Assembly: GCA_964187785.1 (NCBI GenBank)
Contig: OZ076409.1
Location: 10,852,001-10,916,000, forward strand
Reading direction: 5' to 3'
Length of the DNA: 64,000 bases
Source of the DNA: Amphiscolops sp. MND2022
Lineage: Eukaryota
Positions within the stretch are counted from its first letter, which is position 1; every line of letters begins with the position of its first letter. Below are positions 13,701 through 42,772 of the stretch, one piece after another. The notes below the pieces were generated by a model. That model searched no databases. It was not told the DNA's origin and saw only the letters and a list, made by a program, of their open reading frames with translations. Position numbers and translations under genes: made by a program.

Positions 13701-16295
13701 GTTTCGTTTCCTTCCACGCTCTGCTGTTCTTCTATGATGGCTTCAATCCACTTCGCATCTCAAAATGTGCTTAATCTATTGATTGTACGTCAGTGATTCT
13801 GATTTCTCTCTTAGAAAAAAACCAAGAGTGAAATAGTTTCCGAAACGTAAGGGAACATTCACCTCTCCTTCAGCAATTGCCGCCGTAAAATTACTTGTCG
13901 TACATCTCAAATCTTTCAGGGTAACCGAGTTTTGAAAATTGGAAACTGTAATTTGACATGAAACTACAATTGGTTCCAGTTTGCTATCAAGGTTTTGATT
14001 ATTTTCAGTATCTGCAACTTAATCACAAGAAGTACTATCAACAGATAATTTTTCAAGCTCAGTTTCTACAGGTGGGTCGTCTTTGACTGCTTCCAAACTA
14101 GTCTCATGACCTACTGTTATGTCTGGTGGACCCATTCAAAGCCCATTTGTTTCATTCCTCTTGTTTATGTCAAAAGGATTTTGACGGAGAGATAACAAAC
14201 TCGAGTCATCGAAATCAACGAAATCAACTTCTTCATCTGTTTTTTATGAGGGACTTCTTTTTGTTGGAGAATACATGCTTGGCAACGAAAAACTTCCCTG
14301 TGCTCAAGTCTTTCACTACGTACCAAGGACTATGTTCATCGTATGCTAAAAATTTACATTTTGACGCCTTTTTGTCAAGTTTTTGTCATTACGTTTTGAG
14401 TTTTGGAACAGAAACTGTGCATCCAGAAACCTTTAGTTTCTCCATATGCGGTTTCCTTCCATTGAGAGTTTTTAGAAGAGTTAGTTCACCTCTCTCGATG
14501 ACTACGAGGTTCCGCAAACAACAAGCTGTTGCAATGGCTCTGAGCCAATAAATTTTGGCAATTTTGATTCGAGTAGTAAACATGTGGCCATTTTGACTAT
14601 AGTTCTATGGGCTCTGTCAGGAATACCATTCGGCTCATGGGTTTCAAGCACTGGAAATTTTGGCCTTATTTGATTTTCAATACAGAAGGGTTTGAAGATT
14701 TCGTTGATGAACACTACCATTATCGGATTTCAAACTTTTTGGACAACCATGTTCAGCTTACCAATTCTTCGAACTTTCCTAAAACTTCACGTTCAAATCT
14801 CAGGAGTTTTACGGCAGTAAATTTACCGTACTCGTTTACAAGCATAAGTACGTAACAATATCCATGCACGCTCGCAAGATTCAGAGGCCCTAAAACTCTA
14901 CAAAAATTTTTTCCATGTTTTTTTTGCATTTGATTTCAGTCTCTTTCGGACGTGGTACTTTGGTTATCTTACATATTGCACTCACTTTGCAGACATTTAT
15001 TTCGCAGGTTCTCAGAGTGGGAGTTCGTCTCTTTCTGACGTCATTCATGTTCAAATGACCTAGACGCTTATGCCAAAGTTCAGAATTTTCAGTTTTGACT
15101 GCGCTACAAAATTTTCGTTTTTCACAAACTCAGCTCGTAGGAAAAAGAATCAACCATTTCTTTCGAGATCAAAGTAATCCTGTGATGTACAGAGTTTCAG
15201 ACTAACAATTTGCTCGTTAAACAAGATTGAGAGCCTTTATTCGTGAAGTTTGTCGACTGATAGTAAATTGAACTTGTATTGAAGTACATACAAAACATAT
15301 TTCAAGAGCAACATAACTTTCTAGTTTTTCGTGTTGTAAGCTTCAATCTCAACACTGCCTACTCCGTTTTACTACTGATTGTCCTCCTTTGAGACTCAGA
15401 ACGACTTCGTGTTTCTCTTGGAATTCGGCAAAAACTTTTTTTACGTAAACAATGTGATCAGTGCTTCCAGATTCTATGGCGAATTTGATATTTACTTCAA
15501 AACGTGTGGCGTATTATGATGCTAAAAACTGATCCACTTAAACTTTTATTTGCATGTTTTTTCACAATGACTTTCCTGCTTGCAAAGACTGCCAAAACCT
15601 ATGTTCTTTTATCTACGTTCTTCGCTTAATGCGCTGCTATGTCAGAGACATATTAAATGAGGACGCCCTAGAGAAAAACGTAGTTGGCATTGCCACATGC
15701 TCTGCAGATTGACAAAGCCCCTGCTCTGTTCCAATACTGTAGTTGAGAAGCCTCTTGCGCAGTTACGTGTAGTCTCAAGAAGGGTTGAAGTACTCCTGGA
15801 AAATGAAATGTTTGTACTGCTCTGGAAGACCATTCAGTATCAGCGCATTGAATATTGCTGGGGTCGGATTTTAACCTGCTTGTTGTGGTCAACTGTTCGA
15901 TTCTTGGGCTCTGTCGAAGAACGACTGGATATCCTCACGTTCTGTCAATTTTAATTGCGCCAGTAGTGCAACTATACTGACAATAAGGCAGCCTCATTGC
16001 TGCGAAATTGATCAATCACAGATTTCCATGTTGCCTGGCCATCGGCCATTCCGTCTGCATTAACACAGTCATGTCGAAATGCCATCAATGTCGTCGAGTC
16101 AGCAGATGTCGTCGATTCAGAGATTGAGCCAAATAACACCAAACACTGTTGTTTCGGCTTGTCGTCTTCGTCTTTTGGCTCTTCAACCTTGACACGATAT
16201 TGCTCTTGATAGTGCGATAAACACCTCCGTGATTAAAAGATTACGTTAACTTATGAGCATTTGTCAAGTATGACCTGTGAGATTGAGCTGTTAAT
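10760..16295 (-). mobile_element. Decayed Ty1/Copia LTR retrotransposon
   Basis: Minus-strand motifs in Copia order: protease-like FAIESGSTDHI (~15452-15483), WHKRLGHLN (~15050-15075), RT TRPDILF (ORF 11377-11646), RNase H SKHIDVQQHF (~11019-11047). Diverged direct repeats at ~10760-10848 and ~16208-16295; PPT GAGTGGGGG adjoins TGTTAACA at 10848. Confidence 0.85.
11916..14657. repeat. Head-to-tail 1369-bp tandem duplication inside the Copia relic
   Basis: 11916-13284 is repeated at 13285-14653 (twin ORFs 12757 and 14126 are offset by 1369); about 4 substitutions seen; GAAA microhomology at the junction. Confidence 0.95.
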
Positions 16296-18769: not shown

Positions 18770-19050
18770 GGCTGACAGGGTCACAAATTTTCACAACTTT
18801 TCAAACTTTTCAACAATTGAGACTTTTCGAACTTTGTCAGAATCAGTCAGAAGTGTGATCAATGAATACATTAATGAATTTCGTATTTTGTTTATGTTTT
18901 CAATCAACCACCGAAAGTTGTAGTGACGAAATTTCCATTCAAGTTTTTATGCTCACAAAGCAATTGAAGCAACAAAGAAAATGGCCTTGATTCGTTTACC
19001 TAAAAAAGACTGGTACGACCTTTGAACTATTGACCTTTACCAATTCGGAA

Positions 19051-20004
19051 ATGACAGAGTTCCGAAAACGGAGACATAGTGTAGCTACTTGTTTCTCCAG
19101 CCATGAAAGCCACTTAGAAGGGGAAAGATTATACAAAGAGGCAAATCGTAAGAAATTGTCTTACCAGGGCTGTCGCGTCTTCAGGTTATGTTCGCGAGAG
19201 AAAATTGACCTCGATAGATCTGACGCTGCCAAAAAGTTCCGTTTGGCAGCGCAACATTTCATGAATTCTGGCGAATGGGATCGAGCGGGAGAATGCTACG
19301 AGAATTGCGCGAAATTGCAAGAACTCGGACGAGACCTCGAAACAGTTGATGCAGCATCCAACTTCACGAATGCTTCATTGTGCTACAAACAAGACGAGCT
19401 CGGCCGATCACGGCGCGATACAGCTGTGATTGGTGGACGAAGACTGCCGAGAAATAAATCAGCCTCGCTGCCAATGGGAACGGATATCAAGTTACCGAAC
19501 ATCAACGAAGAGAAACTAAAACCAATAAATTCGTCAATGAGCAGGCTGGCTCATCTACAAATGGATTCGAAGCGTTACGAAAGAGCCAGAGAAAATTTCG
19601 AGACAATTGGATGCAATATTGTGAAAAGTGGCAAAAATCTTGAACAGGCCGTAGATTTTCTGTTCAAAGCTTGTATGTGCGAGTTGATGTTTAATCCGCC
19701 GTCGGCGTCCTTGAGAATCCTAGATTATTACAAACTATATCCACCGTGCCAAGAATCCGTACAGTTCAAGTTTTTCTCGAGTCTTCTGGAAGTGGTCCAA
19801 AAAGAGGATCAGATGCAATTCCAGGAACTTTTGAATGACAACAAAAATTTGAGTTTATGGATACAGAAGTTGATGGAGGAATTGTCGAAAGCGCTGGGGT
19901 TTGAGGATACCATAAGAAAGAGTATTAGTCATGAACGCAAACGAAGACTCTCAGAGACGGACCCCCAAGTGAAAAAAGACCCCTTCTATGCCCTGTATAA
20001 CTAG
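19051..20004 (+). CDS. NAPA: Divergent alpha-SNAP (NSF attachment protein)-like protein, intronless
   Basis: Uninterrupted 317-aa ORF. EANRKKL..DAAKKFRLAAQHF..WDRAGECYENCAKL..DAASNFTNASLCYK and YERARENFETIG..FLFKACMCEL match the alpha-SNAP helical pattern. Confidence 0.75.
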   Translation: MTEFRKRRHSVATCFSSHESHLEGERLYKEANRKKLSYQGCRVFRLCSREKIDLDRSDAAKKFRLAAQHFMNSGEWDRAGECYENCAKLQELGRDLETVDAASNFTNASLCYKQDELGRSRRDTAVIGGRRLPRNKSASLPMGTDIKLPNINEEKLKPINSSMSRLAHLQMDSKRYERARENFETIGCNIVKSGKNLEQAVDFLFKACMCELMFNPPSASLRILDYYKLYPPCQESVQFKFFSSLLEVVQKEDQMQFQELLNDNKNLSLWIQKLMEELSKALGFEDTIRKSISHERKRRLSETDPQVKKDPFYALYN

Positions 20005-21564: not shown

Positions 21565-23005
21565 TGTGATAATCCTCCTCGTCGGATTCTTCGTTAAAGA
21601 TAACTGTTGCGTCTAGTGTTGTTTCATTTTGGTGTATAGGCTTAGCGGGATGCCTTAGATCTCTCACTTCTGAGGCTTTGAGGGGGATATCTTCGTTTTC
21701 AGAGTCTATACTTTCGTTATCAGATGCGTTTACTCCCATAGACCTTTTACCCTTGGATCCCGATGGTTGCATGTTTTCTATCTCATTCATCTCAGATCTA
21801 GGATTAGTTGTCATAGATGTGCTTTTATTGGTTTTTATCTCCATCAGAATCGCATCTAATTTGTTCTCCATTTCTTCTCTCATTTTAGTGATTCTATCGT
21901 TGTTTTTCTGTTCAAAAATCTCGGTCCAAGCTTGAATTTCATTACTGACTTGGCTGGGTTCAACTAGTCTGGGTCTCAAATCAGTTTCACCTAAACTTTC
22001 TTGACTTTGTAAATTAACATTAGTTAAAGTTTCATTACCTTGACTTGGAGTTTCTATGCGTACTTCGCTTGTTTCTCTCTCCGGGGACGGAGTTTCTAAC
22101 CTTCTGGACCTTCGATTTCTTCTATTTCCCATCTTGCTCAAGAGGAAAATTGGGTTGAAGTGCAGAAAGAATTTGAATTTATTCGTCAATGTTGTGAAAA
22201 CAATTCGGGTGAAACAAAGAGTTATCAAGGAAACTGCTTTTACAGTGTTTGGGTTTATTGTTACAGAGCAACTGTCTCTGGTACCAGTTATATTTCAACT
22301 GAAGTAAACTGCACTTTTACAAATGAAAAAATCACAAAGCATGACACTCAATTTTTGGGTTGTCATCGATCCAAAAATACTATAAATAGACTTACGTCAG
22401 GGTGACGTAATTCTATTTATAACTTACAAATAGTAATTGCATGACTTCCAATAATCTAACTATGCTAAAGCAACAAGTCCCTGGGAAACCGCTGAATGCC
22501 GCACATACGTCATCCAGTTTTCCGCATAGTGACGTATGATCAAAGCTGATTAAAAGCACCAATAAAACATGTTATAAGTTAGAATCCGCATGGTACCGCA
22601 TATGCGTTACTCGGATTACCGCATAATGACGCATACTCATCGTTACTAAACTCACACGGTAAAGTGTCAATGGCGTTATGTTCACAAAATTAGTTCAGAA
22701 AAGACGTCACGTTATTCTAGCTTCGAAGTTAATGAGTGCATATGTTCATTCATGTCAACAAAATGAAAGCATCAATGTTTAAGGCATTTGTCAAAACGTA
22801 AACATCAAACTATAAGATTAAAGAGTTTGCATGACATTTTCAAGGTATCAACTGAAAATTAAATCAACATAAATAACAAAAGGAAGTTGAGAGTGTTTAA
22901 GAGTTTCAAGTCCTCGAGTTGTTTTAGGGTTCTTTTGGAGATGACTAAGTATTCTCGTTTAGGGTTGTTGCCCAACAGCTCCAGCACAACTGTGGGGTTT
23001 TGACA
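21565..23005 (-). repeat. 3' LTR
   Basis: Matches 35852-37292 with about 5 substitutions. Confidence 0.97.
22381..22421. promoter_or_regulatory. LTR dyad with two opposed TATA boxes and two CRE-like sites (also at 36668-36708)
   Basis: TATAAATAGA-C-TTACGTCA-GGG-TGACGTAA-T-TCTATTTATA is a 41-bp near-perfect palindrome. Confidence 0.6.
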
Positions 23006-23991
23006 GTCCTGCACTTTTAAACGAGAATAGAGCAGCTTCAAAACCATCTATAAAAGCACGGGATCTTACTCCACGGTCCCTTACTGTCTCGGTGTCGTAG
23101 GCGGTTGCTATTAAATATTCGCTCAAAATTTCCAATGCTATTTGATCGTAGCACTTCCCGCACCAATCGCAAAAGCCTGCTACTTTCGGCATCACGGTGG
23201 GGAACAATCTGTGCATCTGTCTTTCACTGGTTGGGATAAGTAGCAAATTGGTACTATGTCCCACATGAAAAGGGAAATTAAATACCTGTTGGTTATTGGC
23301 CACTTGTCCATTCTTCCACTGTTTGGGGGTATCTGTATCATCAATGGGGCGTTGTTGTAGACTACCATATTGTCCACTGAAGTAGGGGCTGTCATTTCTT
23401 GTTGGTTATAGTTACTCGGGTAGACTGTTTGATGATGGTTATTGAAGATATTGATTGTATCATTTGGAAGTGACTTGCATTAGCCACGAAGTTCGGAGGG
23501 TAGGTTGCAGCTGGCCTGTTCACTGGTACGCTCCTTTGAGGATTGTCCCGGGGCGTTGGTAAAATAGCAGCTGTTGGTCTCCCATAGCTGTTTGTCGAGC
23601 CTTCCTCCCTAACTTGAGGTTCCCAAGGTGACATTGGGGAATCTTCTAGTTCAGTGTCAATGAATGAGGTGGATGGGGATTCGTATATATGTTGATCTTC
23701 TTCCATCAAGTCCACTAACTGGCGCTCAATTCTGGTTCCAGAAATGTCGATCACTTCGTCTTCTCTTGATCCTCTTGTTGAAGTAGGAAAAAGGGAAGCG
23801 GTCGCTGCTCCCATAAAGGCGGTCATGACATCAGATCGGGGGCCGCCAGGCCTGAATCGATCTTCTAACTCCGACACGTCTCCAGGATGGACAATAACTT
23901 CATCTCCAGAGTCACTTGAGACGTCAATTATGGCGGGGGACAGAGAAGGTAGCACCAGTTCTTCCTCAAGATTGAATTGTAGATTCTCCAT
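22959..23991 (-). pseudogene. Accessory ORF3 (~344 aa if two -1 shifts are repaired): acidic poly-SIM-like N-terminus, N/Q/P-rich linker, Cys/His C-terminus ending inside the LTR
   Basis: ORFs 23392-23991, 23192-23395 and 22959-23303 each lie in the -1 frame of the previous one; motifs IIDVSSDSGDE, EDEVIDISG, LVDLMEED and CDWCGKC. Confidence 0.6.
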
Positions 23992-24910
23992 TGGTATCGT
24001 GTGATCAGATAGTTTTGAAGAATGAAAATTACGAGCTTTATTGTTTTGGATTATCCCAATTGAGGGTTATTTCAGATGAGCTACTGCTTCTAAGTTTCTA
24101 ATGAGACCTTATGGTAGTCGTCCCATAAATCCCAGTTGTTTCCGATGATTCCCGCGGAAATGCTGAGCGTCATGATTTCTATCTTATCTGATACCCTTAT
24201 ATGGGTTTTAAGGAAATATAGTCGGATATTTCAAAGAGATGAGTTTGATCTGTATCCATCAATGAGGTGTAAACAATTCGATTTCAAGTGTTTTCTCAGT
24301 TTCATCTTGTAATATCACACCTCTTGCTGTTCACTATCACACTGAGTTGATGATTTAAATGATTTATCAACAATTTTCTTCCTATTTAGGAAAGTTAATT
24401 AGGTTTACAGTGAAATAATTATTCATGTTGTTTTGAACAGGGTTAATTCATCCAATATTACATGACTGAGTTGAAAGAAAATAATGAAAATGTTTCAGGA
24501 AAAAGTTTCAAACAGATGTATCAAATATTAAAATATGAGTTCGTCTATCTAATACATTCACACTTTCATCAGTCCTGCACTCAAAAAATGGCACAGGGGA
24601 GTTATATCTAACAATTTTTCAATCATTTTAGATTTCAAGAAAGATTAACATATGACGTTGCCACATAACAAGTGCCATATATCCTGGTATTTTCAGTTTT
24701 CTCATTCGAAGGTAAATTCATGTTTCCGTACATCAAATACTGCTCATTGCCTAACAGTTCACTATTTGCTTAGAATAAGTTTGTTTTAATCACATGTACT
24801 GCACATCTTGCCACGTAGTATTATTTGACTCTGTGTAGTCAAGAATGAATACTATTACGTAATTTCGTAATTGACTGTTTCTTTCTTCACTGTCCGCTGA
24901 TATCTACAAT

Positions 24911-25094
24911 TCCGCATGGTACCGTATATCCAACATCTTGTGATTCCGCATGGTGCCGCATACACGGCGTTCATAATTCCGTATGATGCCGTATGCTCGG
25001 CACTCGTATTTCCGCATAATGCCGCGTAATGTTGTGTCTGGAATCTATGATTCCGCATAATGCCGCATTTTATATATTATAATACTGTATAAAA
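24911..25094 (+). promoter_or_regulatory. Array of five TCCGYATRRTRCCGY motifs followed by TATAAAA; putative promoter of the antisense gene
   Basis: Motifs at 24911, 24945, 24978, 25011 and 25052; TATAAAA at 25088; the same motif clusters in the LTRs and at 28328-28465. Confidence 0.55.
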
Positions 25095-25513
25095 GCCACG
25101 TGCTCTTTTGTTCACTCTCGCTTGTAATGAGAATGACTGGTGAGTCAGTCGTTTACGTCAATTATGTAATCTTTCACTCTAGCAGAAGTGATTGACATTT
25201 AATTGACCAATCAGATTTGAGAACCACTCTATTTCCGTGTACGATATCTGTCACATTTTGCTCTTTTGCCTTTTCTTGTACGCCACGCCTTTTCAATTTC
25301 TTGTGAATTAAACATTCCTTTCAATTCTTCGATCACAGTCTTTTCAGCTTATTCTTGGAAAAAGTATAGTCGTAGTCATAGTCAGTTTCTTTAACAATTT
25401 TCTCTTGAATACTGCACTTCCGAAACTTCTTCTTAACTCTCATTAAAAGTGCTTCCTTATTCTGCATTGGATCATTGCTCATTGTTTTGTATTGTTGTTA
25501 TCCTTCATTCGGG

Positions 25514-28500
25514 ATGGAATCTACTAGTCGGAGGAAATCGCGAAAAGATCAAATTTCAAGACGAGTGCCAGGATCGTGGGGATACAAATCTCCTACAGAG
25601 ACGTCTCCGGGTTGGTTCAACTTTTGTTTTGAGTTTTGATTTGTAGTAGAATTTGTTTCGGTTGAGGGATCATCGTGCAAAGCTGGCCAGGCTTGCAGAA
25701 TGAAGTAACTAATTCACATTAGTCGATTTGTTTAATTTAGTGTGAAAATAATTTTGTCACACATTGATTTTTTGGGGCGGAAGTAGCTTTGTGATTTTTA
25801 ACCGCGTCCGGTTTCAAAGTTAATTCAATGCTACTTCCTGTAATTCTTTTGCCTTCGCTTCCGCTTTAAGCATTTGAACTTGTTTCAGTTGACCTGGGAG
25901 CGACTCAAACTTCACCAGCACGATCACCGACAAAAGTCTATACACCTCTAGAAGCTGTGCCACCAACAACTCAGAATCCTCCCGAAGATTTACCAATCCA
26001 GGAAACTTCCACAGGAAGTAACGAAGGGATTGAACGAGTTCTCGCCACAAGTTTGGATGAATCCGCAGGGTCAGGTCAACTTTCGATCCACGATACTACT
26101 AATGGTTCTTCAGAGATACCCATTGAGGAAATTGAATTGTCCGACAAGAATGTTACTGTGACTGAAGACAACGATCAGACTTTGGCAACCACCACTGAAC
26201 CGAACGTTGAAGAACTGCCACAGGTTACTTTTACCACCAACTCTCCTCGCTTCACTGAATTCATAAACATGGTCCGAGATGCAAATACCTCCAGTCCAAA
26301 ATTGAATAGGCCTGATATTGATCAACCCCATACTTCTTCTAAAGGAAATCCGCCGACTGACCTGGTAGAAGGGGAAAACAGAGAAAAAGACGAAGAGCTG
26401 CCTGAGTCCAATGAAGATATTCCTGATACCTCACATGCCAGAGACAGTGTTGAACCCGAAGAAGAAACAATACAACAAGTTACTGTCACTCGGCAAGAAG
26501 TTTTAGCGCTTTCAAGTGTATTGGATAAGATCCCGAAAACTGCTCTAGTGAGGGGAGATCGTAACATTCCAGAAAACATTACTCTCACTGTTGTTGGGCA
26601 GGCTCAGAACTCACCAGTTCAAGATGTACAAAGTACCAGTCGGGGTGAAACAACAGAACATCCTCCCGATGATTTGCGTCCCCATTCCAGTTCTGAAGAA
26701 CTTCCGTTGGCACGGGGCAAAAGACGAAAACCAAAGTACTCGTTAACTTCAGCCATGTTGAAGAAACATCCTGTCGTCCAATATTTTGCCACTGGACCAC
26801 TCGACAGAAACAAAAACCCATACAAATGGTGGTGTCGAGTTTGCAAAATAGAGCTGTCTCTGATGAGCAGAGGGGTTTTGGAATTATTGTCTCATTACAA
26901 AACTGAAGCTCATTTGACAAAGGAACATAGGATCCGCTTAGAAACTCCTGGGTTACCTCTATTCGACCAAGAAGAAAATGAACTGCGAGGAATAGGACTG
27001 CAAGAAGCGAAACGAAGAGCTAGAGAAGCACATCCAATCGCTCCTCAATTAGATGGGTTCCGTTTATTTGTCGGGCAAGAACGGTTGCCTGAATTCAGTT
27101 CTGTTACCAGCCCGAGTGAGAGTGTTCTGGCTCAAATCTGCATTCTCGAGAATGGATTCCGCCATGGTGGACACATAAATGTCCTGCTCGGACTCTGGGA
27201 GGACATGACAAGATTGTCACCAGGCAGCAGTGCCCAAATCACCACTCACAAATGGAGTCAACACCGCATTTATGTAAGTACTTTTCTATTCCCCTTTTAT
27301 TCTACCCATGTTTTGAGGGTTACAATTCTATCCTTCTGTTTAGGCCATCGTTACATATATTTTCCGCGAACTAATGCATTATTGTGTCGTGACTACTGGG
27401 CAGCTGGAGTTTGTTCTCTATCTTATGAGAGTTCTCTTACCAAAAATTTCCTCTTCCTGAGTTTCTGGTCGGGGAACGTCTATTACCAAGTTTGTCTCGG
27501 GTCTGGGACCCGCGGGTTATTGTTACCCAAAAGACTTCTTTCCTTGCTCTCGTCTTACTTCAGCTTGTCAGAGAACCCACCTTCTTGCCTTAGCCTCGTT
27601 AATTTTGACGAGAGGTTAGCAACTTGCCTTACTCGGTCACTGTCAGGGAAAACTTGCCCAATGGTCGTCAATTGGTTTGGAGTTACTGAGTTAGAAAAAT
27701 GTTTATCCATGCCAACATCCCGGATCCTTGAGCGACACGACTTCAGGACCATATTGGATTTCTTGCTCATGAAACTGAGAACCGCGCTGGACCAAGAGTG
27801 GTTGCAGTCAATACCCGTATTACACAAGGTACACTTTTCCGTTTTACTTTGTCTCAAAATGCACTTTCAACTTCTAGCGTCATGGTACCCCTCTTTTTAG
27901 TGCGTAACACACTTAACATACACTCTAGAGGAGGCCTCATCCATCATAGCCCTGTTATCTGCACACTGGGACAGGGTGTTGGATCACCTGAATCGGGTTT
28001 CCCGATTACCAACCTTCCGGTACCACATGCGTGAGGTAATATTTCGTTTTTGGATTCCTTTTGTAGCCAATTTGTTGATTAACCAATTTGTTGATTAACC
28101 TTTTCGGTTTTTTAGCCCAGTACGTTAGACGAATGTTTCCGGCTCGATACAGCGTACCTGGCCCGGCTTTTCGTCATTCGCTGTGTTTTGGATCACTGTT
28201 AGTATTCGTTTATCACTTGTTTTCACTGTGCTTTTCTATCAGTAGTATGGCTTTTCGTTGTAATTTCTTTGCGCAGCTGTGACTTGCGATTATCATTAGG
28301 AATTGCTTCTTTGAATAACACACCAAAGCTGCGGGATGCCGTATATACGTCACCCTTTTTTCCGCATGATACCGCATATGCGGCGTCCCTGTTTCCGTAT
28401 GATGCCGCATATTTTGGTGAAGGGTAGATCGTAAAACAGCTAAAACCGTAGGATGCCGCATATGCTCTAAGTATATGCCGTACTATACGGCGTAGTGGAG

Positions 28501-29681
28501 TTGGTGGCACCCTAACTAGGTGTGACTCATGTTTTGCTTTTATCGTTTTTGGATGTTTTGCTATTTGTGTTACAGACAACTCGTCATTTTCTGAAGCACC
28601 GACTGGATATGAAGCTGGATTTCGCCTGTTTAACCAGTTTGCTGTATTCGTTTATTCCCAGCTCCAAAGTATACTTCCAGATAGTATCCTTGGCAATGTC
28701 TCCGACTGGGACAGTTATCTGAAGCTCGATTTAACCCAGCCTGGTCTCCCTTTCAAGAGCTGCAATGAATTCGTTCTGAACTCTGATTTTCATGAGTTAG
28801 TAACTTCCAGCAAGCTGCCAAGGCCCAGTAAATTCATCGAACAGTCGTTTGCCTTCTATAAAGCGTTTTGTCGAATACTGTTGCAGCATAAGATTGCGAC
28901 TTCGGATTTGATTAGAGGTTTATCCAGTTTCGATTCTGCCATGATGCTTGATGGTGAAGAGAAACATTATCTGCCTGCGATTGAGATGCTGACGACCTAC
29001 TTCTCCTCCCATGGCTGGATCACAGTTAGTGATAAAACAAAGGCTGTGAGTCAAAATAGGTCTTTGGTTACGAAATTTCGTTCAAGTCAAGTCTGCCGGC
29101 CAGATGATTGGTTTGAATTCCTTTGCTCCTGTTATGAATTACATTGCCGACCAGAGCTACATCGGGTATTTTAGTAATCCTGTCTGTGTTTGCCACCGAA
29201 AGCGAAGATCACTAGTCAATTTGTTGTACCCATGCCGGAATTGGGACCCGACGAAGATGTATTTCATTCATGCATTTCGAGTATCCAGCTGGCCTACAAG
29301 ACTGTCCCAAACGTGTCAAGTCTCTTCCGAGACCCTCGATCGCTCAGCCGTGTGTTTCGTCTTATCGGGCGAGGACGTGATTTATTAGAAGATCGCAAAT
29401 TTTCTGTTTGGAACTTTTTAAAAGGTAGCGGACCAAGTCGAGTCAGATTTCAGACTAAATTAGAAAGTGCATACAAGAGTGCCGTTGTGAGACGAGAAGA
29501 AGATCCTTTCTCTGTCGACCCCGATGTTTCTGTTTTGAGTAAAGTATCCAGCACTACGAGTTCCCCAGATTCTCAGCCAGTTCTTGGGAAGGCTACAGTG
29601 TCTCTATCCCGCTGCGTCGAAGGAGGAAATGATGGTGCCAAGAAAACAAAAGGGTCGAGTGGAAAAGCTAAGAAGAACTAA
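25514..29681 (+). pseudogene. Antisense five-exon gene encoding a BED-zinc-finger / hAT-transposase-derived protein (~1069 aa); disrupted in this copy
   Basis: Exons 25514-25610, 25889-27273, 27344-27828, 27901-28035, 28576-29681; all introns GT-AG. WWCRVCKIEL..ELLSHYKTEAH is BED-like; SLSYESS..FLSFW..CLG..LSLVNFD is RNase-H-like; WFEFL..PELHRVF**SCLCLP resembles the hAT dimerisation domain. Two 1-nt deletions and TAG-TAA at 29172-29177. Confidence 0.7.
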
Positions 29682-29855: not shown

Positions 29856-32800
29856 TTAATATCTGTATGTGTCTGAGTAGTTTGGGTTAGGGTTAGGACG
29901 TAAGTTGTATTTATCACCACGGGTGTTTATGGGTTCTTCTTGTGATGGGATATTTTGTGGATTTTCTGGGGTTTTTTGGGTATCATCATCAAGTGAATTA
30001 TTTGCATCTTTTTGGGTTTTTTGGGTACTTTGATCATCTTCAATGATTTGTTGTGGTATTTCATTTTCATGGTTTTCATGCGATTCAGTGGTCTGTTCCA
30101 CTGGGCTCCCCCACTATTTTTTGAAGATCCTGGGGAGGGTGGGCGGTTTTCTTCGGGCATTTGAATTGGAATGTATTCTGTGTCTTCAGTATTTAATGAA
30201 TATTCTGAAGGACCATCGTCAAAAGGATTTGAACCAAAGTTCGTGTTCCATGATTGGGCATATAGGTCATCATTTGTTATAGGCATTTGGTCATCTTTTT
30301 GCCAATCAATTTCTCGAACAAAAATGTCTGCTAGGGGCGCTTGCGGAGTGAATTTCCGTAGGCGAATCCTGTGTAACAGTTGCGTTTTGTTATTCCCGAG
30401 TCTCCGGACGATGTAGTTATTGTTAGGGAGAACTTTTTCTACTTTATATGGCCCGCACCATCTGAATTCTCGGAATGGTATTTTTGTCACTTGAGTATCG
30501 GCTTTTGGGTTAAGAATGTAGCAGTAATCCGTTGTTTCGAGCGGAGCTGCTTTCGCTTTGCGGTCCTAGTAAGCTTTGTATTTGAGATATGATTGCATGA
30601 TGTTCTTTTTGGTTTGATCTTGAAGGATTTTCATGCGTTTTTGAATTTCTTCCGCCACATCTGCTTGCGGTTGGTATCGTGGGTTAGGATTGTATCCAAG
30701 TTTGTAGTCTAGGATATTGTGTGGTATCCTACCATGGAAGACTCGTGAAGGTTCACAACCGAGTGATGCATGGTATGTGGTGTTGTGATTGAGGACTGCC
30801 AAGGGGAGATATTTATGCTAGTTGTTCCTGAATTCGCCTGTTGCGGCTTTTAGGTGCATTTTCACTGATGCATGTGTTCTCTCAAGGAGTCCTATTGTTT
30901 GGGCATGTTTCATTGTTGCGTGTTTCATTTCAATTCCAAGTACTGCCGACACTTCATGAGTTACTTGTGTATCGAATTGAGTGCCTAAATCCGTGATTAT
31001 CGTTGTTGGAAGGTATGTATGTTTGCATAAGATGTCCATGATAACCCTTGATACTGCTGTTGCAGTAATACGAGTTACAGGGTAGGCAAACAAGTATTTT
31101 GAGAAGACATCTATTGCTGTGATGATATGGTCATAGCCTCCACTAGGGGGAAGGTTTGGTAAAATGTCCAATTGCAAAATGTCTTCCGGACCGAGATCCC
31201 ATTCCGGACAATTAAGAAGTTCTGTCCTTAGGAGATCATTGTTTATGCGTTTCGTTTGGATGCAGATTTGGCAATTACTAACCCATTTTTTGATGTACTT
31301 TGCCATACATGGGTAGTAGTATTTTTGTCTTGCTTCTTGAATCATTTTCGTAATTCCTGGATGGTTTGAATTATGACCATGTAAGGCTTGAAGAAATTCG
31401 TCTAGGAGTTGGATTGGTAGGAGGATTTGGTAGTGAGATATAGTTCCAGTGTCGGTATAGTATTTTCGTGTGAGAACTTCCTGTTTAATTTCTATTCGTG
31501 TTATGTTCTGTAAGTAGTGCTGGTATCGATAGTCTGATGCTAGTTCATTCTCGTCAAAAGGGTTTCCTTCGAGTTTTGCTCTGAGGTTTCTTAGGACTAT
31601 GTCGTTATTCTGCTCAAGGCGGATTCTTGCATTGTCCTTAAAGTATCCCGAAGAGCAGGAGATCAGACCTGATGTAGGTTTGTGGAATCGTTGTAGCTCG
31701 GAAACAGCATTTTCTGGATCATTGTGTGTTTCGGTTTGTGCTTGATTTCGAATGTTTTGTTTTTCTTCCCAGAATTGATTTTCGTCAATTTCATCATCTG
31801 GGAGGACATAGATTTGTTCTTCTTCGATGATGCCAGTTGATTGGATGTTCACCTCAATCGCTTTCGTGTGAATGTCGTTGCGGATTGTCAGTTCCAGTTT
31901 TTCTGTTGGGTCGACTTCCGTTCTAGATAAGAAGTCGGCAGCAGTGTTCATTGTTCCAGCTACGTGGGCGATCACGAAGTTGTATTGCAATACATAATCG
32001 CAGGCATTCCAAAGTGCTGGAGGGATCATTTTTGTTTGAAAAAATCGGGTTACAGATCGATTTTCAGTAAACACGATTACTGGGAAGGTACTACCCCACA
32101 TGAGATGTCCGAATTCAACAAATGCAAAATATATTGACAAAAATTCCTTTGCATAAATTGACATTTTCGTCTGTGTAGGGTTGAAAGTTTTTGAACCAAA
32201 AGCTATGGGTGCATATGTTTTGCGTTTTGATTGGAGCTTCTGGTTTGGGTCATCCTCTATCATGATAGCATATCCAGCTGCTGTGAAACTTGCATCGGAC
32301 ATGACTATAAGTTGCTTATTTTTCAGCGGTTGTTTTAGAGCTAACTGGCAAGAATTTTCTAGGAGTTTGTTGAGGTTCGTGAAGTCTTCTACCAAATTTG
32401 TCGGTACATAGAATTTGGAAGTTTCTTTGAGGAGTTTGAAGAACGGTGAGAGCCGTTCCGAAAGTCGTGGTATGTAATTTCGGTAATAGTTTAAAAATCC
32501 GATATACCTCTGCAACGCCTTTTTTGATTTCGGAAAGCGAAGCTTTGAGAGGAAGTCTTTTACTTTGTCGGCTTGAGGGGCAACTCCATCTGGTGTGATT
32601 GTGCGTCCCAGAAAGTCGACCTGTTTCACTCCAAAGTGGCCTTTGGACATGGAGAGTTTTAGTCCTGCATCGCGTATGCATTCGAACACAGTTCTGATAT
32701 TCGTACACAGTTGTTTTGTGTCATTTGCCGCAATGCCAATGTCATCGACATACTGTGCACATTGGTCTGCTTTAATTGCTCTGTCCAGGTACTCTCTCAT

Positions 32801-34740
32801 AAAACTTGAAAAGGCAGAAAGTGATCTGCTGAGGCCCTGGGCAAGGCGACGATAAGCGAATGTTCTACTGGCAAAGTTGAAGGCGAGCATTTGGATGGAT
32901 TGGTAATCCGCCATCTGCAGGCAGTGGTAAGCTTGGGAGCAGTCCAATTTGCAGAAAAGCTTTTTCCCTGCCATATGTTGGGCTGCATCCGATAAGGTGC
33001 TTACTGGGTGGTTGTTGTTGACGTAAGCTTCGGTGATGAGGTTGTTGATTTTTCGTAGGTCAACAAATAGTCTGAGGCGCCCGTTAGGTTTGCGTTGTGC
33101 AAATATTGGGCTTGCATATTTAGAAAAAGGTAGTGTTGTAATGATGCCATACTTATGTAGGAGTGCAAGTTCTACTGTAATGTCATCTTTAAGATTGATA
33201 GGAGTTGGCAAACTTTGGCTGTATGCAGGTCTGTCATCATTTGGCGTTAGTTTTACTTTGAATTCACGGTTTATGCCAATGTCGAAACGGTGTCTGGCAA
33301 AAATATCATGAAATTCAATGAGGATTTCTTCAATTTCTTTCCGTTCGTCATGACTGAGTGTTGTGTCATTCCAGTCGAAGTTTGAAAGGAAAACTTTTCT
33401 GGAATTTTCATCATCTTGTGGGTTTAGTTTTTCAAGTTCTTTGAGTTCTAGGAGTTCTTTGTAGATTCGTTGTTGAATTGGAGTGTATGTTGCTGGGTCA
33501 CCTGGTTCTTCAGGAGTAGGGAACCAGTATGTCTCCTGTTCTGAGTTCGTTTTTGGAACTTTGAGGAGTTCGTTTATGTAGACGTCCGTTGTTTCCTCAT
33601 GTTGTATCATGAAGGACAGTAACGCTGGGTCTACTGGCTGTATATGTTTGATTTGTTCTGGTGTCAGTATCTTGAAATCCGCTAAATGGGTATCAAGGGT
33701 TATTGTATATGGTAACTCGGAGAAATTAATGATTTGGTATCCAATAGCATTATTGTTGACTGTACTGAGTGACGCTGTGATGAAGATGCTATTGTGATTT
33801 TCAAACTGATGTGATGGGGTGACTATTCCAGTTGCGTCATGGTCCATCAGATGGGGCATTCTGCTTGCAATTGCTAGGGTTTCGCCTGGTTGCAAGGTAT
33901 ATGTATTTTCTGCAAACAATGGTGTTGCTTGTCGTATTGATGTTTGGGTGTCGGGTTTAAGCTGCATTCAAAGGTAGGGGAAGGTTAGGATGCCTTGGGT
34001 GACATCAAAGATTGCGTTATTTCTACGGAGAAAACACAATCCAATTAACGGGTTCGGTAAGTTTTTCATAATGATGAAATTTTCCTTCAACATGAAGTCG
34101 GCCACTTCAAATTCAAGTAGAACAGTACCAATCGGGACTTCCAGTTGTCCATTGGGCACCATAATTTGAAAATTTGGTGGGGGACCAGTTTCTTTGATTG
34201 CTTCATTTGCTAGCAACTTGATTTTGTTGAGGTCTTGTTCGGAGATTGCACTTGTAAGGGCTCCGGTATCAATAAGACCATCAAGAGTAAGTTTTTCGAA
34301 GTCCATTGGAATGTAGTACATGTGGCGTTTTCGCTTCAATGTCAAGGAGGTTGAGATTGGTAGATATGACAAATTTCGTTCTTTGTCAAATTGTATGTGT
34401 TCAGAGAGGTCTTCATTCAATAAGGGTTGTTTTTGATCATCACAAGAAGTTTTATTGTGACATGGTTTTTGATGGGAGATTCGTTGTGAATTTCGAAGTT
34501 TGGGTCTGTTTCAGGGTGGGTTGGTTGTTTTGTGAAGTAGTTGTCTGGTGCATCTTGAAAGAGTTCATATAGTTCTTCTGGTGATGTTTCCAGGGTTGAT
34601 TGTTGAGAGTTTTGTGTTGTTGAGTTCGTGTCAAAGGTTGGTGTTTTTGTGGGTTTTGGACTCAGTTGATGCTGCCAGTCACCGGCTGAGTTTGGTTTTT
34701 GTGGTGATTTTGTGTAAAGGCGTGGCGTTTCTAGTTTAAA
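29856..34740 (-). pseudogene. pol: Gypsy pol (protease, dUTPase-like segment, RT, RNase H, integrase)
   Basis: LIDTGA, YVDD, RNase H SDAS, HHCC (HGHNSNHPG..CQIC) and DDE core. Essentially one frame with premature stops at 33968, 30818 and 30566 and -1 shifts near 34450 and 30110. Confidence 0.95.
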
Positions 34741-36419
34741 TCCTTCGACGAGGATTGTTGGTTTCTTTCGATTCTGGGTCTGATTGGTTTTTTAGCTCGC
34801 TTGTATTCTTCTATAACTTTCCTTTGGGGTTCAGTTAGGTTCCATTTTGGTGGTCTATTATCCATATTGGCACCAAAATAGTAATATTCTTCTTCATGTC
34901 CCAGAGTTTTGCAATTGGGACATTTAGGTGCATCCGGATCTTCTTCTAGTTTTCTCCTTTTAGCTAATTTACGGCAGTCAGTCATCATGTGACTAGCATC
35001 TTTGCAGTAACGACATTGGTCATTTTTGAGTGTTTTGTCGGGTACTGTTTTCGGAGTTTGTTTTTTGGTTTTGTCAACTTGTTTTTTGTTAGTTTTTTCA
35101 GTGTTTTGTTCTTTTTTGGTAACGGTCACCTGAGTTTTGACGAGGGCTTCGTCGGCCTCTAGACCATTAAGTTCCATCTCTCTTTCAAGATGTTTAACGA
35201 TTTGGTCATAAGAGCCATTTTCCAGATAGGCTTGGTTGATGGATTTTTTAAGATGCGGTGGCATCTTGGCATAGAGTAGATTCTCTATCATATGGTGTGC
35301 ATTGTCACCGAAGGCTTTTTCCGCGTTTTCTTGCAAATCTTCGAGAAAATCGGGTAGCTTTTGGTTTTCTGGGTCAAATGTTAGTCGATGAAATTTATGT
35401 TTTGCCGAAGCACTTGATTTTGGTTTGACGTACTTTCGGCGGAAAACTTTTAGGATGTCTTCCAGTGTTGTTGTGGGTGTTCTCTGGATGTTTTTGAAGG
35501 TTTTTAACGCCAATCCTCTGAGATGTGCATAAAAGTGGTTGATCTTCATTTCTTCTGTGAGATTTGGCTGCATTTTGAGGGTTGTGTGGAATAAGTCCTC
35601 GAAATATTCGAATTTTTTATTTTTTTCGTTTTTTCCATTGAATGTGAGTGTGTTTTTAGGGTGAAATAGGGATTGTTGTGAGTTTTTATTGGCTAGTTTT
35701 TCTATAGCCTGGGCAATTTGGTTGACCGGGTCAAGTGGTTTTGTTGTGGATGTTGAAGTGTTGCGGTCTGCGTGGGATCCTAAGGTGTCGTTTAGAAGTG
35801 GGGTATTTTGAGAGCTTTGTCTATGGAATGGTTTGTTGGCTCCTGTCACCATGTGATAATCCTCCTCGTCGGATTCCTCGTTAAAGATAACTGTTGCGTC
35901 TAGTGTTGTATCATTTTGGTGTATAGGCTTAGCGGGATGCCTTAGATCTCTCATTTCTGAGGCTTTGAGGGGGATATCTTCGTTTTCAGAGTCTATACTT
36001 TCGTTATCAGATGCGTTTACTCCCATAGACCTTTTACCCTTGGATCCCGATGGTTGCATGTTTTCTATCTCATTCATCTCAGATCTAGGATTAGTTGTCA
36101 TAGATGTGCTTTTATTGGTTTTTATCTCCATCAGAATCGCATCTAATTTGTTCTCCATTTCTTCTCTCATTTTAGTGATTCTATCGTTGTTTTTCTGTTC
36201 AAAAATCTCGGTCCAAGCTTGAATTTCATTACTGACTTGGCTGGGTTCAACTAGTCTGGGTCTCAAATCAGTTTCACCTAAACTTTCTTGACTTTGTAAA
36301 TTAACATTAGTTAAAGTTTCATTACCTTGACTTGGAGTTTCTATGCGTACTTCGCTTGTTTCTCTCTCCGGGGACGGAGTTTCTAACCTTCTGGACCTTC
36401 GATTTCTTCTATTTCCCAT
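34731..36419 (-). CDS. gag: Gypsy gag (562 aa from ATG at 36419)
   Basis: Capsid-like region and zinc knuckle CRYCKDASHMMTDC plus a degenerate second knuckle; ends T-TTA-AAC-TAG. Confidence 0.9.
   Translation of the reverse strand: MGNRRNRRSRRLETPSPERETSEVRIETPSQGNETLTNVNLQSQESLGETDLRPRLVEPSQVSNEIQAWTEIFEQKNNDRITKMREEMENKLDAILMEIKTNKSTSMTTNPRSEMNEIENMQPSGSKGKRSMGVNASDNESIDSENEDIPLKASEMRDLRHPAKPIHQNDTTLDATVIFNEESDEEDYHMVTGANKPFHRQSSQNTPLLNDTLGSHADRNTSTSTTKPLDPVNQIAQAIEKLANKNSQQSLFHPKNTLTFNGKNEKNKKFEYFEDLFHTTLKMQPNLTEEMKINHFYAHLRGLALKTFKNIQRTPTTTLEDILKVFRRKYVKPKSSASAKHKFHRLTFDPENQKLPDFLEDLQENAEKAFGDNAHHMIENLLYAKMPPHLKKSINQAYLENGSYDQIVKHLEREMELNGLEADEALVKTQVTVTKKEQNTEKTNKKQVDKTKKQTPKTVPDKTLKNDQCRYCKDASHMMTDCRKLAKRRKLEEDPDAPKCPNCKTLGHEEEYYYFGANMDNRPPKWNLTEPQRKVIEEYKRAKKPIRPRIERNQQSSSKDLN
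35834..35851 (-). other. Primer-binding site
   Basis: TGGTGACAGGAGCC.. directly follows the 5' LTR end; priming tRNA not identified (close to tRNA-Leu-type PBS). Confidence 0.7.
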
Positions 36420-37292
36420 CTTGCTCAAGAGGAAAATTGGGTTGAAGTGCAGAAAGAATTTGAATTTATTCGTCAATGTTGTGAAAACAATTCGGGTGAA
36501 ACAAAGAGTTATCAAGGAAACTGCTTTTACAGTGTTTGGGTTTATTGTTACAGAGCAACTGTCTCTGGTACCAGTTATATTTCAACTGAAGTAAACTGCA
36601 CTTTTACAAATGAAAAAATCACAAAGCATGACACTCAATTTTTGGGTTGTCATCGATCCAAAAATACTATAAATAGACTTACGTCAGGGTGACGTAATTC
36701 TATTTATAACTTACAAATAGTAATTGCATGACTTCCAATAATCTAACTATGCTAAAGCAACAAGTCCCTGGGAAACCGCTGAATGCCGCACATACGTCAT
36801 CCAGTTTTCCGCATAGTGACGTATGATCAAAGCTGATTAAAAGCACCAATAAAACATGTTATAAGTTAGAATCCGCATGGTACCGCATATGCGTTACTCG
36901 GATTACCGCATAATGACGCATACTCATCGTTACTAAACTCACACGGTAAAGTGTCAATGGCGTTATGTTCACAAAATTAGTTCAGAAAAGACGTCACGTT
37001 ATTCTAGCTTCGAAGTTAATGAGTGCATATGTTCATTCATGTCAACAAAATGAAAGCATCAATGTTTAAGGCATTTGTCAAAACGTAAACATCAAACTAT
37101 ACGATTAAAGAGTTTGCATGACATTTTCAAGGTATCAACTGAAAATTAAATCAACATAAATAACAAAAGGAAGTTGAGAGTGTTTAAGAGTTTCAAGTCC
37201 TCGAGTTGTTTTAGGGTTCTTTTGGAGATGACTAAGTATTCTCGTTTAGGGTTGTTGCCCAACAGCTCCAGCACAACTGTGGGGTTGTGACA
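35852..37292 (-). repeat. 5' LTR
   Basis: Direct repeat of 21565-23005, adjacent to the PBS. Confidence 0.97.
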
Positions 37293-41600: not shown

Positions 41601-42772
41601 GGATGTGAGAAACATAGCCAAAACTAGCCCAAAAATGGCCAGAAAACAGCCATTTTTCGACTTTTTTCGATTTTCTCAAAAACTGTCCATACGATTCAAA
41701 CGAAATATTCTACAGTCATTCTATACCATATTAGAGTCCTATATGTGCAGTGGCATCAAAATCGTATGGCTGGGATGTGAGAAACATAGCCAAAATTAGC
41801 CCAAAAATGGCCAGAAAACAGCCATTTTTCGACTTTTTTCAATTTTCTCAAAAACTGTCCATACGATTCAAACGAAATTTTCTACAGTCATTCTACACCA
41901 TATTAGAGTCCTATATGTGCAGTGGCATCAAAATCGTATGGCTGGGATGTGAGAAACATAGCCAAAATTAGCCCAAAAATGGCCAGAAAACAGCCATTTT
42001 TCGACTTTTTTCGATTTTCTCAAAAACTGTCCATACGATTCAAACGAAATTTTCTACAGTCATTCAACACCATATTAGAGTCCTATATGTGCAGTGGCAT
42101 CAAAATCGTATGGCTGGGATGTGAGAAACATAGCCAAAATTAGCCCAAAAATGGCCAAAAAACAGTCATTTTTCGATTTTTTTCGATTTTCTCAAAAACT
42201 GTCCATACGATTCGAACGAAATTTTCTACAGTCATTCTACACCATATTATGGACCTTTATGTGCAATTTCATTAAGTTCGTATGGCTGACATGTGAGAAA
42301 CATAGCCAAATTTAGCCCAAAAATGGCCAAAAAAAACAGTCATTTTTCGATTTTTTCGATTTTCTCACAAACTGTTCATACGATTCGAACGAACGCGAGT
42401 CAGAAGGAAAAAGACTTAAGCCGACTCCTTTACCTCATATGCGGCTCTGGTTATATCACGTCCCAATAAACCAAAATTTCTATCAGCATCAACAACAGCT
42501 ATGTTGACATTAAGCTCTTTGTTCTTATAGAACACTGTTGAGAAGAAAGCACCGAGATGTTTCATTTCATGTTTGTCATATGTTTCAATTCCCGTGTTCT
42601 TTTCTTCAACTTTCTGTTGTCCAATAAGCTTCCACAGCTTCTTTGAAAACAGCGTCAGTGATGCTCCAGTGTATTTCATCATTGGTATTTCTTTACCATT
42701 CACTTTGATTTTCTCCATTCTTGATATAATCGGTATGTCCAATAAAATACGAATAGTCGGAAGTACTGCCAT
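38616..42772 (-). pseudogene. pol: Fragmented pol (PR, RT, RNase H, integrase) of the second Gypsy element
   Basis: YTGAS..LLGRD, DLSKAYWQIPL, LTTDAS..RTDHKPL, WERLHMD..SDNG..SNGLAERAV spread over several frames. Confidence 0.9.
41236..42431. mobile_element. HINE/DINE-like element carrying about 6 copies of a 172-bp tandem repeat, inserted in pol
   Basis: AGGAGTCGG / CCGACTCCT subterminal inverted repeats, 5' hairpin, T-tract; repeat period 172 (ORF offsets 41750/41922/42094); pol rejoins across it. Confidence 0.8.

What the first reader, a model, noticed from the sequence alone, without database searches (positions are those of the whole stretch)
22959..23991. Sense accessory ORF with three SUMO-interacting-like motifs and a Cys/His tail ending inside U3
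Seen: IIDVSSDSGDE, EDEVIDISG and LVDLMEED fit the (V/I/L)-(V/I)-D-(V/I/L)+acidic SIM pattern. The C-terminal part has FHVGH..MHRL..CDWCGKC, and its last 47 nt lie in the LTR, as with nef. The three track ORFs fuse if two single bases are restored; alternatively the first two are coupled by an ATGA stop-start overlap at 23392-23395. Established: tandem SIMs bind poly-SUMO, and SUMO is needed for transposon silencing in animals. Inference: a candidate anti-silencing factor.
Basis: partly seen in the sequence, partly recalled or inferred. Interest (0 to 1): 0.72.

Follow-up and report, generated by a model that had tools for sequence, protein, structure and literature searches.

The report
Lysine-free SUMO-docking retrotransposon accessory protein
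This is a broken copy of an extra retrotransposon gene that many related sequences hold intact; its protein keeps one predicted SUMO-docking motif (not three) and almost no lysines, so it likely works beside the host's SUMO and ubiquitin machinery to keep the element expressed.

Summary
The three short frames at 22959-23991 (minus strand) are one gene, broken twice in this copy. It lies at the 3' end of a young 15.7-kb Ty3/gypsy element (LTRs 21565-23005 and 35852-37292). Natural relatives are single ORFs of about 340-355 aa (112 clusters, 833 sequences, fragments included), so the ATGA coupling idea fails. Only the first SIM-like motif is conserved as a SIM core (71 of 79), followed by serines and acidic residues. 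The second is not (7 of 95); the third is an LxxLL-like amphipathic helix. The tail is a three-cysteine knuckle plus helical hairpin with no database match; the histidines are poorly conserved. New here: the first ~280 residues are a lysine desert (0.4% Lys, 4.7% Arg), a trait typical of proteins that work next to ubiquitin ligases. The element also carries a conserved antisense BED-like zinc-finger gene and promoter-side CCGCAT repeats. Best reading (0.35): a SUMO-docking adaptor that blunts SUMO-dependent silencing. Rivals: coactivator, RNA-export factor, self-repressor. No binding, expression or activity was shown.

The parts
22959..23991 (-). Sense accessory gene, one ORF of about 350 aa in relatives; this copy is broken by two frameshifts (near 23455 and near 23310)
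23455..23991 (-). In-frame 5' part (residues 1-179): acidic, predicted disordered, no lysine
23899..23931 (-). Motif 1, conserved phospho-SIM-like motif (hydrophobic core, Ser-Ser, acidic tail)
23737..23763 (-).
23695..23730 (-). Motif 3: conserved amphipathic LxxLL-like helix, also in distant relatives
23488..23505 (-). Conserved Pro/Tyr motif; reads PPxY in 37 of 110 relatives, PPxF in this copy
23306..23452 (-). Middle part in a second frame (Asn/Gln/Pro-rich linker, no lysine)
22986..23171 (-). C-terminal domain: CxxC knuckle, two predicted helices, distal Cys; ends inside U3
21565..23005 (-). 3' LTR (1441 nt); the gene's last 47 nt lie in its U3 end; CCGCAT repeat cluster at 22522-22634 upstream of a TATA at 22421
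35852..37292 (-). 5' LTR, 5 mismatches to the 3' LTR; TATGG target-site duplication flanks the element
29927..36581 (-). gag, protease, RT, RNase H, integrase of a Ty3/gypsy element; pol is interrupted in this copy
24912..25095 (.). Predicted internal promoter between the two divergent accessory genes: five CCGCAT-type dimers about 33 bp apart, TATA-like sites at 25076 (-) and 25088 (+)
25870..29681 (+). Antisense accessory gene, apparently spliced, with a basic NLS-like stretch and a BED-like zinc finger (label recalled, no Pfam hit); conserved across the family
28339..28490 (.). Third CCGCAT repeat cluster, between open frames of the antisense gene

Best explanation
It is a twice-frameshifted copy of a conserved ~350-aa accessory gene at the 3' end of a Ty3/gypsy retrotransposon, whose intact protein likely docks on SUMO-marked host chromatin proteins through one phospho-SIM and likely blunts their silencing of the element. 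Shown: one gene in relatives, one conserved SIM-like motif with Ser/acidic tail, a string of other conserved short motifs in an acidic region, near absence of lysine over the first ~280 residues, and a conserved three-Cys C-terminal domain. Inferred: CK2-type phosphorylation strengthens SUMO binding; the other motifs (LxxLL-like helix, Pro/Tyr motif) recruit host partners, possibly a ubiquitin ligase; the lysine desert spares the protein from being ubiquitylated or SUMOylated itself; the C-terminal domain binds zinc and oligomerises or binds a partner; the antisense zinc-finger protein may bring it to the CCGCAT repeats. It is an adaptor, not a ligase: it has no RING.
For: Single ORF in relatives of 35-96% identity. 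Motif 1: at least 3 of 4 core residues hydrophobic in 72 of 78 rows, Ser-Ser next in 74, a CK2-type S/T-x-x-D/E in 73; the full pattern in 38 of 43 full-length relatives against 0.2% of shuffles (pattern written after seeing the alignment); this fits the SIM definition in PMC12751080 (passages). Lysine desert: 47 Lys against 559 Arg in 11,860 residues; 38 of 43 have a Lys-free run of 150 or more; 0 Lys in 179 codons here against 6.6 expected; gag 10.3%, pol 6.2%. Lysine deserts are prevalent in disordered ubiquitin-system proteins and protect Slx5 (passages of PMC10169902, PMC13696103). SUMO links piRNA targeting to silencing in Drosophila (passages of PMC8490990). PPxY in 19 of 43 against 6.6% of shuffles.
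Against: Nothing functional was measured. One SIM only, so no poly-SUMO avidity unless the protein oligomerises; no RING (0 of 43) and almost no classic NLS (1 of 43). The control region, the disordered N-terminus of the antisense protein, is also Lys-poor (1.8%; 15 of 32 with a run of 150 or more), so the contrast is about four- to five-fold. Acidic activation domains also avoid Lys (recalled). Some distant relatives lack the SIM-like motif (P0226, P0259) or the desert (P0241, P0248, P0258). Strict PPxY is absent from this copy's own lineage. The host and its silencing pathway were not established.
Confidence: 0.35

Rival explanations
1. SUMO-assisted coactivator: the acidic N-terminal half with its LxxLL-like helix is an activation domain, recruited to the LTR and internal promoter by the antisense zinc-finger protein on the CCGCAT repeats, much as IE2 uses a phospho-SIM or foamy-virus Tas acts on two promoters. 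It would raise transcription without disabling any silencing factor.
For: First 130 residues 18.8% acidic, net charge -17 to -23; Phi-x-x-Phi-Phi in 81 of 93 rows, helical moment 0.58 against 0.13 for strand; repeat dimers 8 in the element, 0 in the other 48 kb, beside TATA boxes; the two accessory genes travel together; IE2 phospho-SIM raises transactivation (abstract of 10.1101/655282).
Against: IE2 is itself SUMOylated, whereas only 1 of 43 here has a psi-K-x-E site. Arg is kept at 4.7% while Lys is lost, also through the non-acidic linker. No contact between the two proteins was tested.
Confidence: 0.25
2. Rev/CERV-like RNA factor: the Cys knuckle and Arg-bearing helical hairpin bind the element's unspliced RNA and promote its export or processing; the SIM only places it at nuclear bodies.
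For: Predicted knuckle plus hairpin with pLDDT 89-95 over residues 41-90; Glu-Thr and Arg at the start of helix 2 are nearly invariant; CERV of Cer1 is a Cys-loop accessory protein needed for gRNA export (passages of PMC10309623); the element appears to make spliced RNAs.
Against: The Arg patch has net charge of only 0 to +2; the protein is strongly acidic overall; CERV has four Cys and a G-protein-like domain that have no counterpart here.
Confidence: 0.15
3. Self-limiting repressor: the SIM recruits SUMO-marked corepressors to the element's promoters and holds copy number down, like a latency factor.
For: Host silencing effectors use SIMs in this way (passages of PMC8490990); foamy-virus Bet suppresses its internal promoter (passages of PMC13220597).
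Against: The acidic, activator-like composition and the family's large expansion (833 sequences) do not point to repression, though they do not exclude it.
Confidence: 0.1
4. Motif 1 binds something other than SUMO and the protein has an unrelated role, for example in particle assembly, trafficking or integration targeting; part of the tail's conservation reflects the overlapping PPT and LTR end.
For: Any loose hydrophobic core occurs in 97% of shuffles; many other motifs are as conserved as motif 1; the last codons overlap the PPT/U3 junction.
Against: The full core-Ser-Ser-acidic pattern is rare by chance and kept in P0041, P0166, P0168 at about 35-40% identity; most of the conserved domain lies upstream of the PPT.
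Confidence: 0.15

Closest known systems
CERV of C. elegans Cer1 (PMC10309623, passages)
   Same: Non-Env accessory protein of a gypsy-class element with a conserved Cys cluster and flexible linkers, regulated by phosphorylation
   Different: CERV shares an exon with Gag, has a four-Cys loop and a G-protein-like domain and exports RNA; the paper's main text has no mention of SUMO; no sequence likeness was detected (no direct comparison possible)
HCMV IE2 phospho-SIM (10.1101/655282, abstract)
   Same: SIM with adjacent CK2 serines in a viral nuclear regulator
   Different: IE2 is SUMOylated and acts as a cis-E3; this protein has almost no lysines; it is a retrotransposon product
SUMO-targeted ubiquitin ligases RNF4, Arkadia, Slx5-Slx8, HSV-1 ICP0 (PMC4584293, PMC13696103, passages)
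   Same: SIM in a disordered region; lysine desert as in Slx5
   Different: No RING; one conserved SIM rather than three or more
Lentiviral Nef and foamy-virus Tas/Bet (Nef recalled; PMC13220597, passages)
   Same: 3' accessory ORF running into U3; an internal promoter and two accessory products are predicted
   Different: No myristoylation signal, no sequence or fold match found; the second gene is antisense
Plant Retand antisense TRP28 ORFs and VANC anti-silencing proteins (PMC11963269, passages; PMC5735166, search listing)
   Same: Long pol-to-3'LTR region with an antisense, transposase-like DNA-binding ORF and short repeats
   Different: Different domain (BED-like finger, no TRP28 hit); here a second, sense gene with a SIM; VANC belongs to DNA transposons

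Membership tests
Ty3/gypsy LTR retrotransposon (host element) | PR-RT-RNaseH-integrase order | tested here: met
   Pfam hits in that order; best solved relative Ty3 Gag-Pol, E 1e-35
Ty3/gypsy LTR retrotransposon (host element) | TG...CA LTR pair with target-site duplication | tested here: met
   1441-nt LTRs, 5-bp TATGG duplication
Canonical SIM, motif 1 | Four-residue core with at least three hydrophobic residues | tested here: met
   72 of 78 rows; 71 of 79 with V/I/L only
Canonical SIM, motif 1 | Adjacent acidic or phosphorylatable stretch, in a disordered region | tested here: met
   Ser-Ser 74 of 78, CK2-type site 73 of 78; pLDDT under 50 for residues 1-28 in a low-confidence model
Canonical SIM, motif 1 | Binds the SUMO groove as a beta strand | not testable with these tools
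   needs a binding assay
Canonical SIM, motif 2 | Conserved hydrophobic core | tested here: not met
   7 of 95; 5 of 91
Canonical SIM, motif 3 | Conserved hydrophobic core in extended form | tested here: inconclusive
   17 of 97 with V/I/L, 82 of 93 if Met is allowed; helical periodicity and a predicted helix 87-97 argue against a strand
SUMO-targeted ubiquitin ligase | RING domain | tested here: not met
   0 of 43 match a RING pattern; 2-5 Cys per protein
SUMO-targeted ubiquitin ligase | Tandem SIMs | tested here: not met
   three strict matches in 3 of 43
Lysine-desert protein | Lys-free run of at least 150 residues with Arg retained | tested here: met
   38 of 43; median 274; Arg 4.7%; threshold from PMC13696103
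Nef | N-terminal Met-Gly myristoylation signal | tested here: not met
   0 of 43
Nef | ORF overlaps U3 | tested here: met
   47 nt here; the junction residue is Leu, Val or Met in all 83 residue-bearing rows of 87, as an xTG codon would need (inference for relatives)
Nef | Nef core fold | tested here: inconclusive
   not among fold-search rows; no match at E 0.001 or Z 8
Env or small fusogen ORF | Transmembrane helix | tested here: not met
   0 of 43 reach a 19-residue hydropathy of 1.6
Rev/CERV-type RNA export factor | Arg-rich RNA-binding patch | tested here: inconclusive
   conserved Arg at the start of helix 2 but net charge 0 to +2
Rev/CERV-type RNA export factor | Needed for export of unspliced RNA; oligomer | not testable with these tools
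   needs experiments
IE2-type SUMO-dependent transactivator | Own SUMO acceptor lysine | tested here: not met
   psi-K-x-E in 1 of 43

The most novel reading that the evidence does not exclude
A Ty3/gypsy lineage has become a 'complex' retrotransposon with its own two-gene counter-silencing module: an antisense, transposase-like zinc-finger protein marks the element's promoters through CCGCAT repeats, and this lysine-free sense protein bridges SUMO-marked silencing factors there to a host ubiquitin ligase. That would be a retrotransposon-encoded, RING-less SUMO-targeting adaptor with a small Cys3 domain of no known family.
Probability: 0.2. Interest if true: 0.85.

Novelty: new variant of a known kind. 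Interest (0 to 1): 0.58.

Why it matters
SUMO is a core step of transposon silencing in flies, and viruses attack SUMO-marked defences, but my paper searches listed no retrotransposon-encoded SIM protein. A conserved phospho-SIM inside a lysine desert, in a family of hundreds of sequences, gives a direct test of whether LTR retrotransposons fight silencing at the SUMO step: one peptide binding assay and one knock-down. The C-terminal domain has no Pfam, PDB or fold match found here, and the paired zinc-finger gene with promoter repeats would be a parallel to plant anti-silencing systems and foamy-virus regulation.

Tried and rejected
Three separate ORFs or ATGA stop-start coupling: rejected. 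Tandem poly-SUMO-binding SIMs and a Cys/His finger: rejected as family traits. Env, fusogen, Nef, RING ligase: features not met. Pfam gave nothing above cut-off for the three frames, the 27-row or the 87-row alignment; a weak Vif hit (E 0.026) falls mostly on out-of-frame residues of the middle frame and was dropped. PDB sequence searches: 0 hits for A1, 4 weak hits (best E 0.031) for A3. Fold searches: no match at E 0.001 in PDB or BFVD, best Z 5.5 among 48,161 chains; this shows neither absence nor novelty. ESM Atlas: no usable hit twice. Full-length model was low confidence (mean pLDDT 43.6) and was not searched. Four-copy complex of the C-terminal domain: no verdict. Sequencing runs: none was listed, no RNA holder listed, so no reads were laid. 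No genome is held for the window. No related loci in metagenome contigs (two scans) or viral contigs, so no DNA of other copies was seen. P0239, a repeat protein at E 4e-6, was dropped as a false hit. Sense and antisense families are unrelated (probability 0.4%). Earlier findings: three look-ups returned nothing. BC-box and PTAP patterns (recalled): 2 and 1 of 43.

Full report
Setting. The finding lies in a full-length LTR element on the minus strand. Its LTRs are 21565-23005 and 35852-37292, 1441 nt with 5 mismatches, TG...CA ends and a TATGG target-site duplication. Pfam finds gag, protease, RT, RNase H and integrase in Ty3/gypsy order; the best solved relative of pol is Ty3 Gag-Pol. Pol is interrupted in this copy, so it is a young but defective insertion. 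The host was not established; an animal is an inference, and no genome is held.

Observation. The three frames, the quoted peptides, the ATGA at 23395-23392 and the 47-nt overlap with U3 are all there. Three psi-psi-D-psi matches in the first frame were reached by 0 of 20,000 shuffles.

One gene. A search with the last frame among longer proteins returned 46 relatives, most of 340-355 aa. The closest (349 aa, 93-96% identical) align across all three frames in order: 23991-23455, 23452-23306, 23315-22962. This copy thus has two frameshifts, near 23455 and near 23310. No product among 263 shares its out-of-frame tails or head. The Met of the ATGA is an internal codon, Ile in P0003 and P0004. A profile search gave 111 clusters; with one more they stand for 833 sequences, fragments included. 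Of 14 listed members in each of four clusters, 12, 5, 8 and 9 are full length. An exhaustive search with the last frame found 103 proteins, down to about 30% identity in the C-terminal domain; one (P0239) was dropped as false. I saw no DNA of other copies. That relatives sit in like elements is inferred from two facts. Nine of 65 clusters of the antisense gene share a contig length with a sense-gene cluster, one of only 8,387 bp, with roughly matching divergence. And the residue at the LTR boundary is Leu, Val or Met in all 83 residue-bearing rows of 87, as a codon ending in the LTR's TG would require.

The SIM-like motifs. In 112 aligned cluster representatives, a V/I/L core is kept in 71 of 79 rows at motif 1, 7 of 95 at motif 2 and 17 of 97 at motif 3 (rows lacking the region left out). 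Motif 1 is followed by Ser-Ser in 74 of 78 and a CK2-type site in 73 of 78. The whole pattern occurs in 38 of 43 full-length relatives and 0.2% of shuffles, but I wrote it after seeing the alignment; a loose core alone occurs in 97% of shuffles. It fits the SIM and phospho-SIM description in PMC12751080 (passages). It is kept in P0041, P0166, P0168 and loosely P0260, and missing in P0226 and P0259. Motif 2 keeps Asp and Gly, not the core. Motif 3 passes as a core if Met is allowed (82 of 93), but it has helical periodicity (moment 0.58 at 100 degrees, 0.13 at 170), fits Phi-x-x-Phi-Phi in 81 of 93, recurs in seven of eight distant relatives checked and is modelled as a helix at low confidence. 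Only 3 of 43 have three strict matches. So the family has one SIM candidate, not a tandem array.

The tail. A model from an 87-row alignment gives a CxxC knuckle and two helices, pLDDT 89-95 over residues 41-90. Three Cys are conserved (77, 81 and 73 of 87); the His residues and the fourth Cys are not, apart from one His kept in close relatives. Zinc binding is inferred. Pfam, PDB sequence, Foldseek, VIA-align and Atlas searches found no relative; for a small helical domain that is weak evidence.

A lysine desert. In the 43 full-length relatives, the up to 280 residues before the CxxC hold 47 Lys and 559 Arg in 11,860 positions; 38 have a Lys-free run of 150 or more (median 274). This copy's first 179 codons have no Lys against 6.6 expected from base composition (0 of 5,000 shuffles); gag has 10.3% and pol 6.2%. 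The fairest control, the disordered N-terminus of the antisense protein, has 1.8%, and 15 of 32 also reach 150, so the effect is real but smaller than gag suggests. Several distant relatives lack it. Lysine deserts with Arg retained are prevalent in disordered ubiquitin-system proteins and protect the STUbL subunit Slx5 (passages of PMC10169902 and PMC13696103). A conserved Pro/Tyr motif reads PPxY in 19 of 43 (6.6% of shuffles) but PPxF in this copy's lineage; PPxY as a NEDD4-family docking site is recalled. There is no RING, transmembrane helix or Met-Gly start in 43, and a SUMO acceptor site or classic NLS in one each.

The neighbourhood. Head to head with this gene lies an antisense gene (25870-29681) with an NLS-like stretch and a CxxC...H...H finger that I label BED-like from recall; Pfam does not name it. 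It is conserved in 65 clusters, 523 sequences, and the relatives read end or drift at the same GT donor-like site, which suggests splicing. CCGCAT-type dimers, mostly 33 bp apart, cluster in U3 upstream of a TATA, between the two genes next to TATA-like sites on both strands, and inside the antisense gene; strict dimers number 8 in the element and 0 in the other 48 kb. That the finger binds them is untested. How the sense gene is transcribed (internal promoter or splicing) is unknown.

Mechanism. I commit, at 0.35, to a nuclear adaptor that docks on SUMO-marked proteins through motif 1 and blunts silencing of the element, by sequestration or by bringing in a host ligase, the desert protecting it. 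SUMO's role in piRNA silencing is from PMC8490990 (passages); viral STUbL precedents from PMC4584293 (passages). Rivals: SUMO-assisted coactivator (0.25; IE2 abstract; Tas passages), Rev/CERV-like RNA factor (0.15; passages), self-repressor (0.1), SUMO-unrelated role (0.15). Every functional step is inferred.

Literature. Ten searches were run; two concerned acoel genomes on an untested recalled guess about the host. None listed this family or a retrotransposon-encoded SIM protein; the library lacks most subscription papers, and Repbase was not available. Also seen: Retand antisense ORFs (passages), VANC (listing), transposases as regulators (abstract and passages), an eLife errantivirus paper (two passages, nothing relevant), one genome paper (passages). 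No supplements were read; repeat libraries in them could hold this family unannotated.

Verdict. A real, conserved accessory gene of no known family; dead in this copy; one SIM candidate, a lysine desert, an unplaced Cys3 domain, and a partner gene. New variant of a known kind, interest 0.58.

Noticed in passing
window 25870-29681 (+): Antisense, apparently spliced gene with NLS-like stretch and BED-like zinc finger; later frames recall a degenerate hAT-type transposase (recalled, not tested). Conserved in 65 clusters and paired with the sense gene; no Pfam or PDB hit. May be as interesting as the finding itself.
   Followed up: partly
window 22522-22634, 24912-25063, 28339-28490, 36809-36921: CCGCAT-N4-CCGCAT-type dimers with ~33-bp period near the LTR and internal TATA boxes; candidate binding sites for the element's own zinc-finger protein.
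   Followed up: partly
window 24570-24581 (-): Exact 12-nt copy of the sequence spanning the atypical PPT/U3 junction (23015), inside the internal non-coding region; possibly a second plus-strand priming site.
   Followed up: no
window 36416-35852 (-): The gag frame starts inside the 5' LTR and reads through the primer-binding site; the PBS looks tRNA-Leu-like (recalled, not tested).
   Followed up: no
window 18991-20004 (+): Single open frame of 337 aa with SNAP (soluble NSF attachment protein) similarity split by an insertion (Pfam E 2.5e-20), just outside the element.
   Followed up: no
window 39057-40518 (-): Fragments of a second, unrelated-looking gypsy pol (RT/RNase H/integrase) in several frames.
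   Followed up: no
window 11916-14657 and 41321-42393: A 1369-bp tandem duplication at 99.7% identity, and a 172-bp tandem array of about six units.
   Followed up: no
P0228, P0237, P0241, P0243, P0247, P0257, P0260: A distant branch of the C-terminal domain with a different N-terminal part (Pro-rich, shorter); suggests the Cys3 domain is older than the SIM-plus-desert arrangement.
   Followed up: partly
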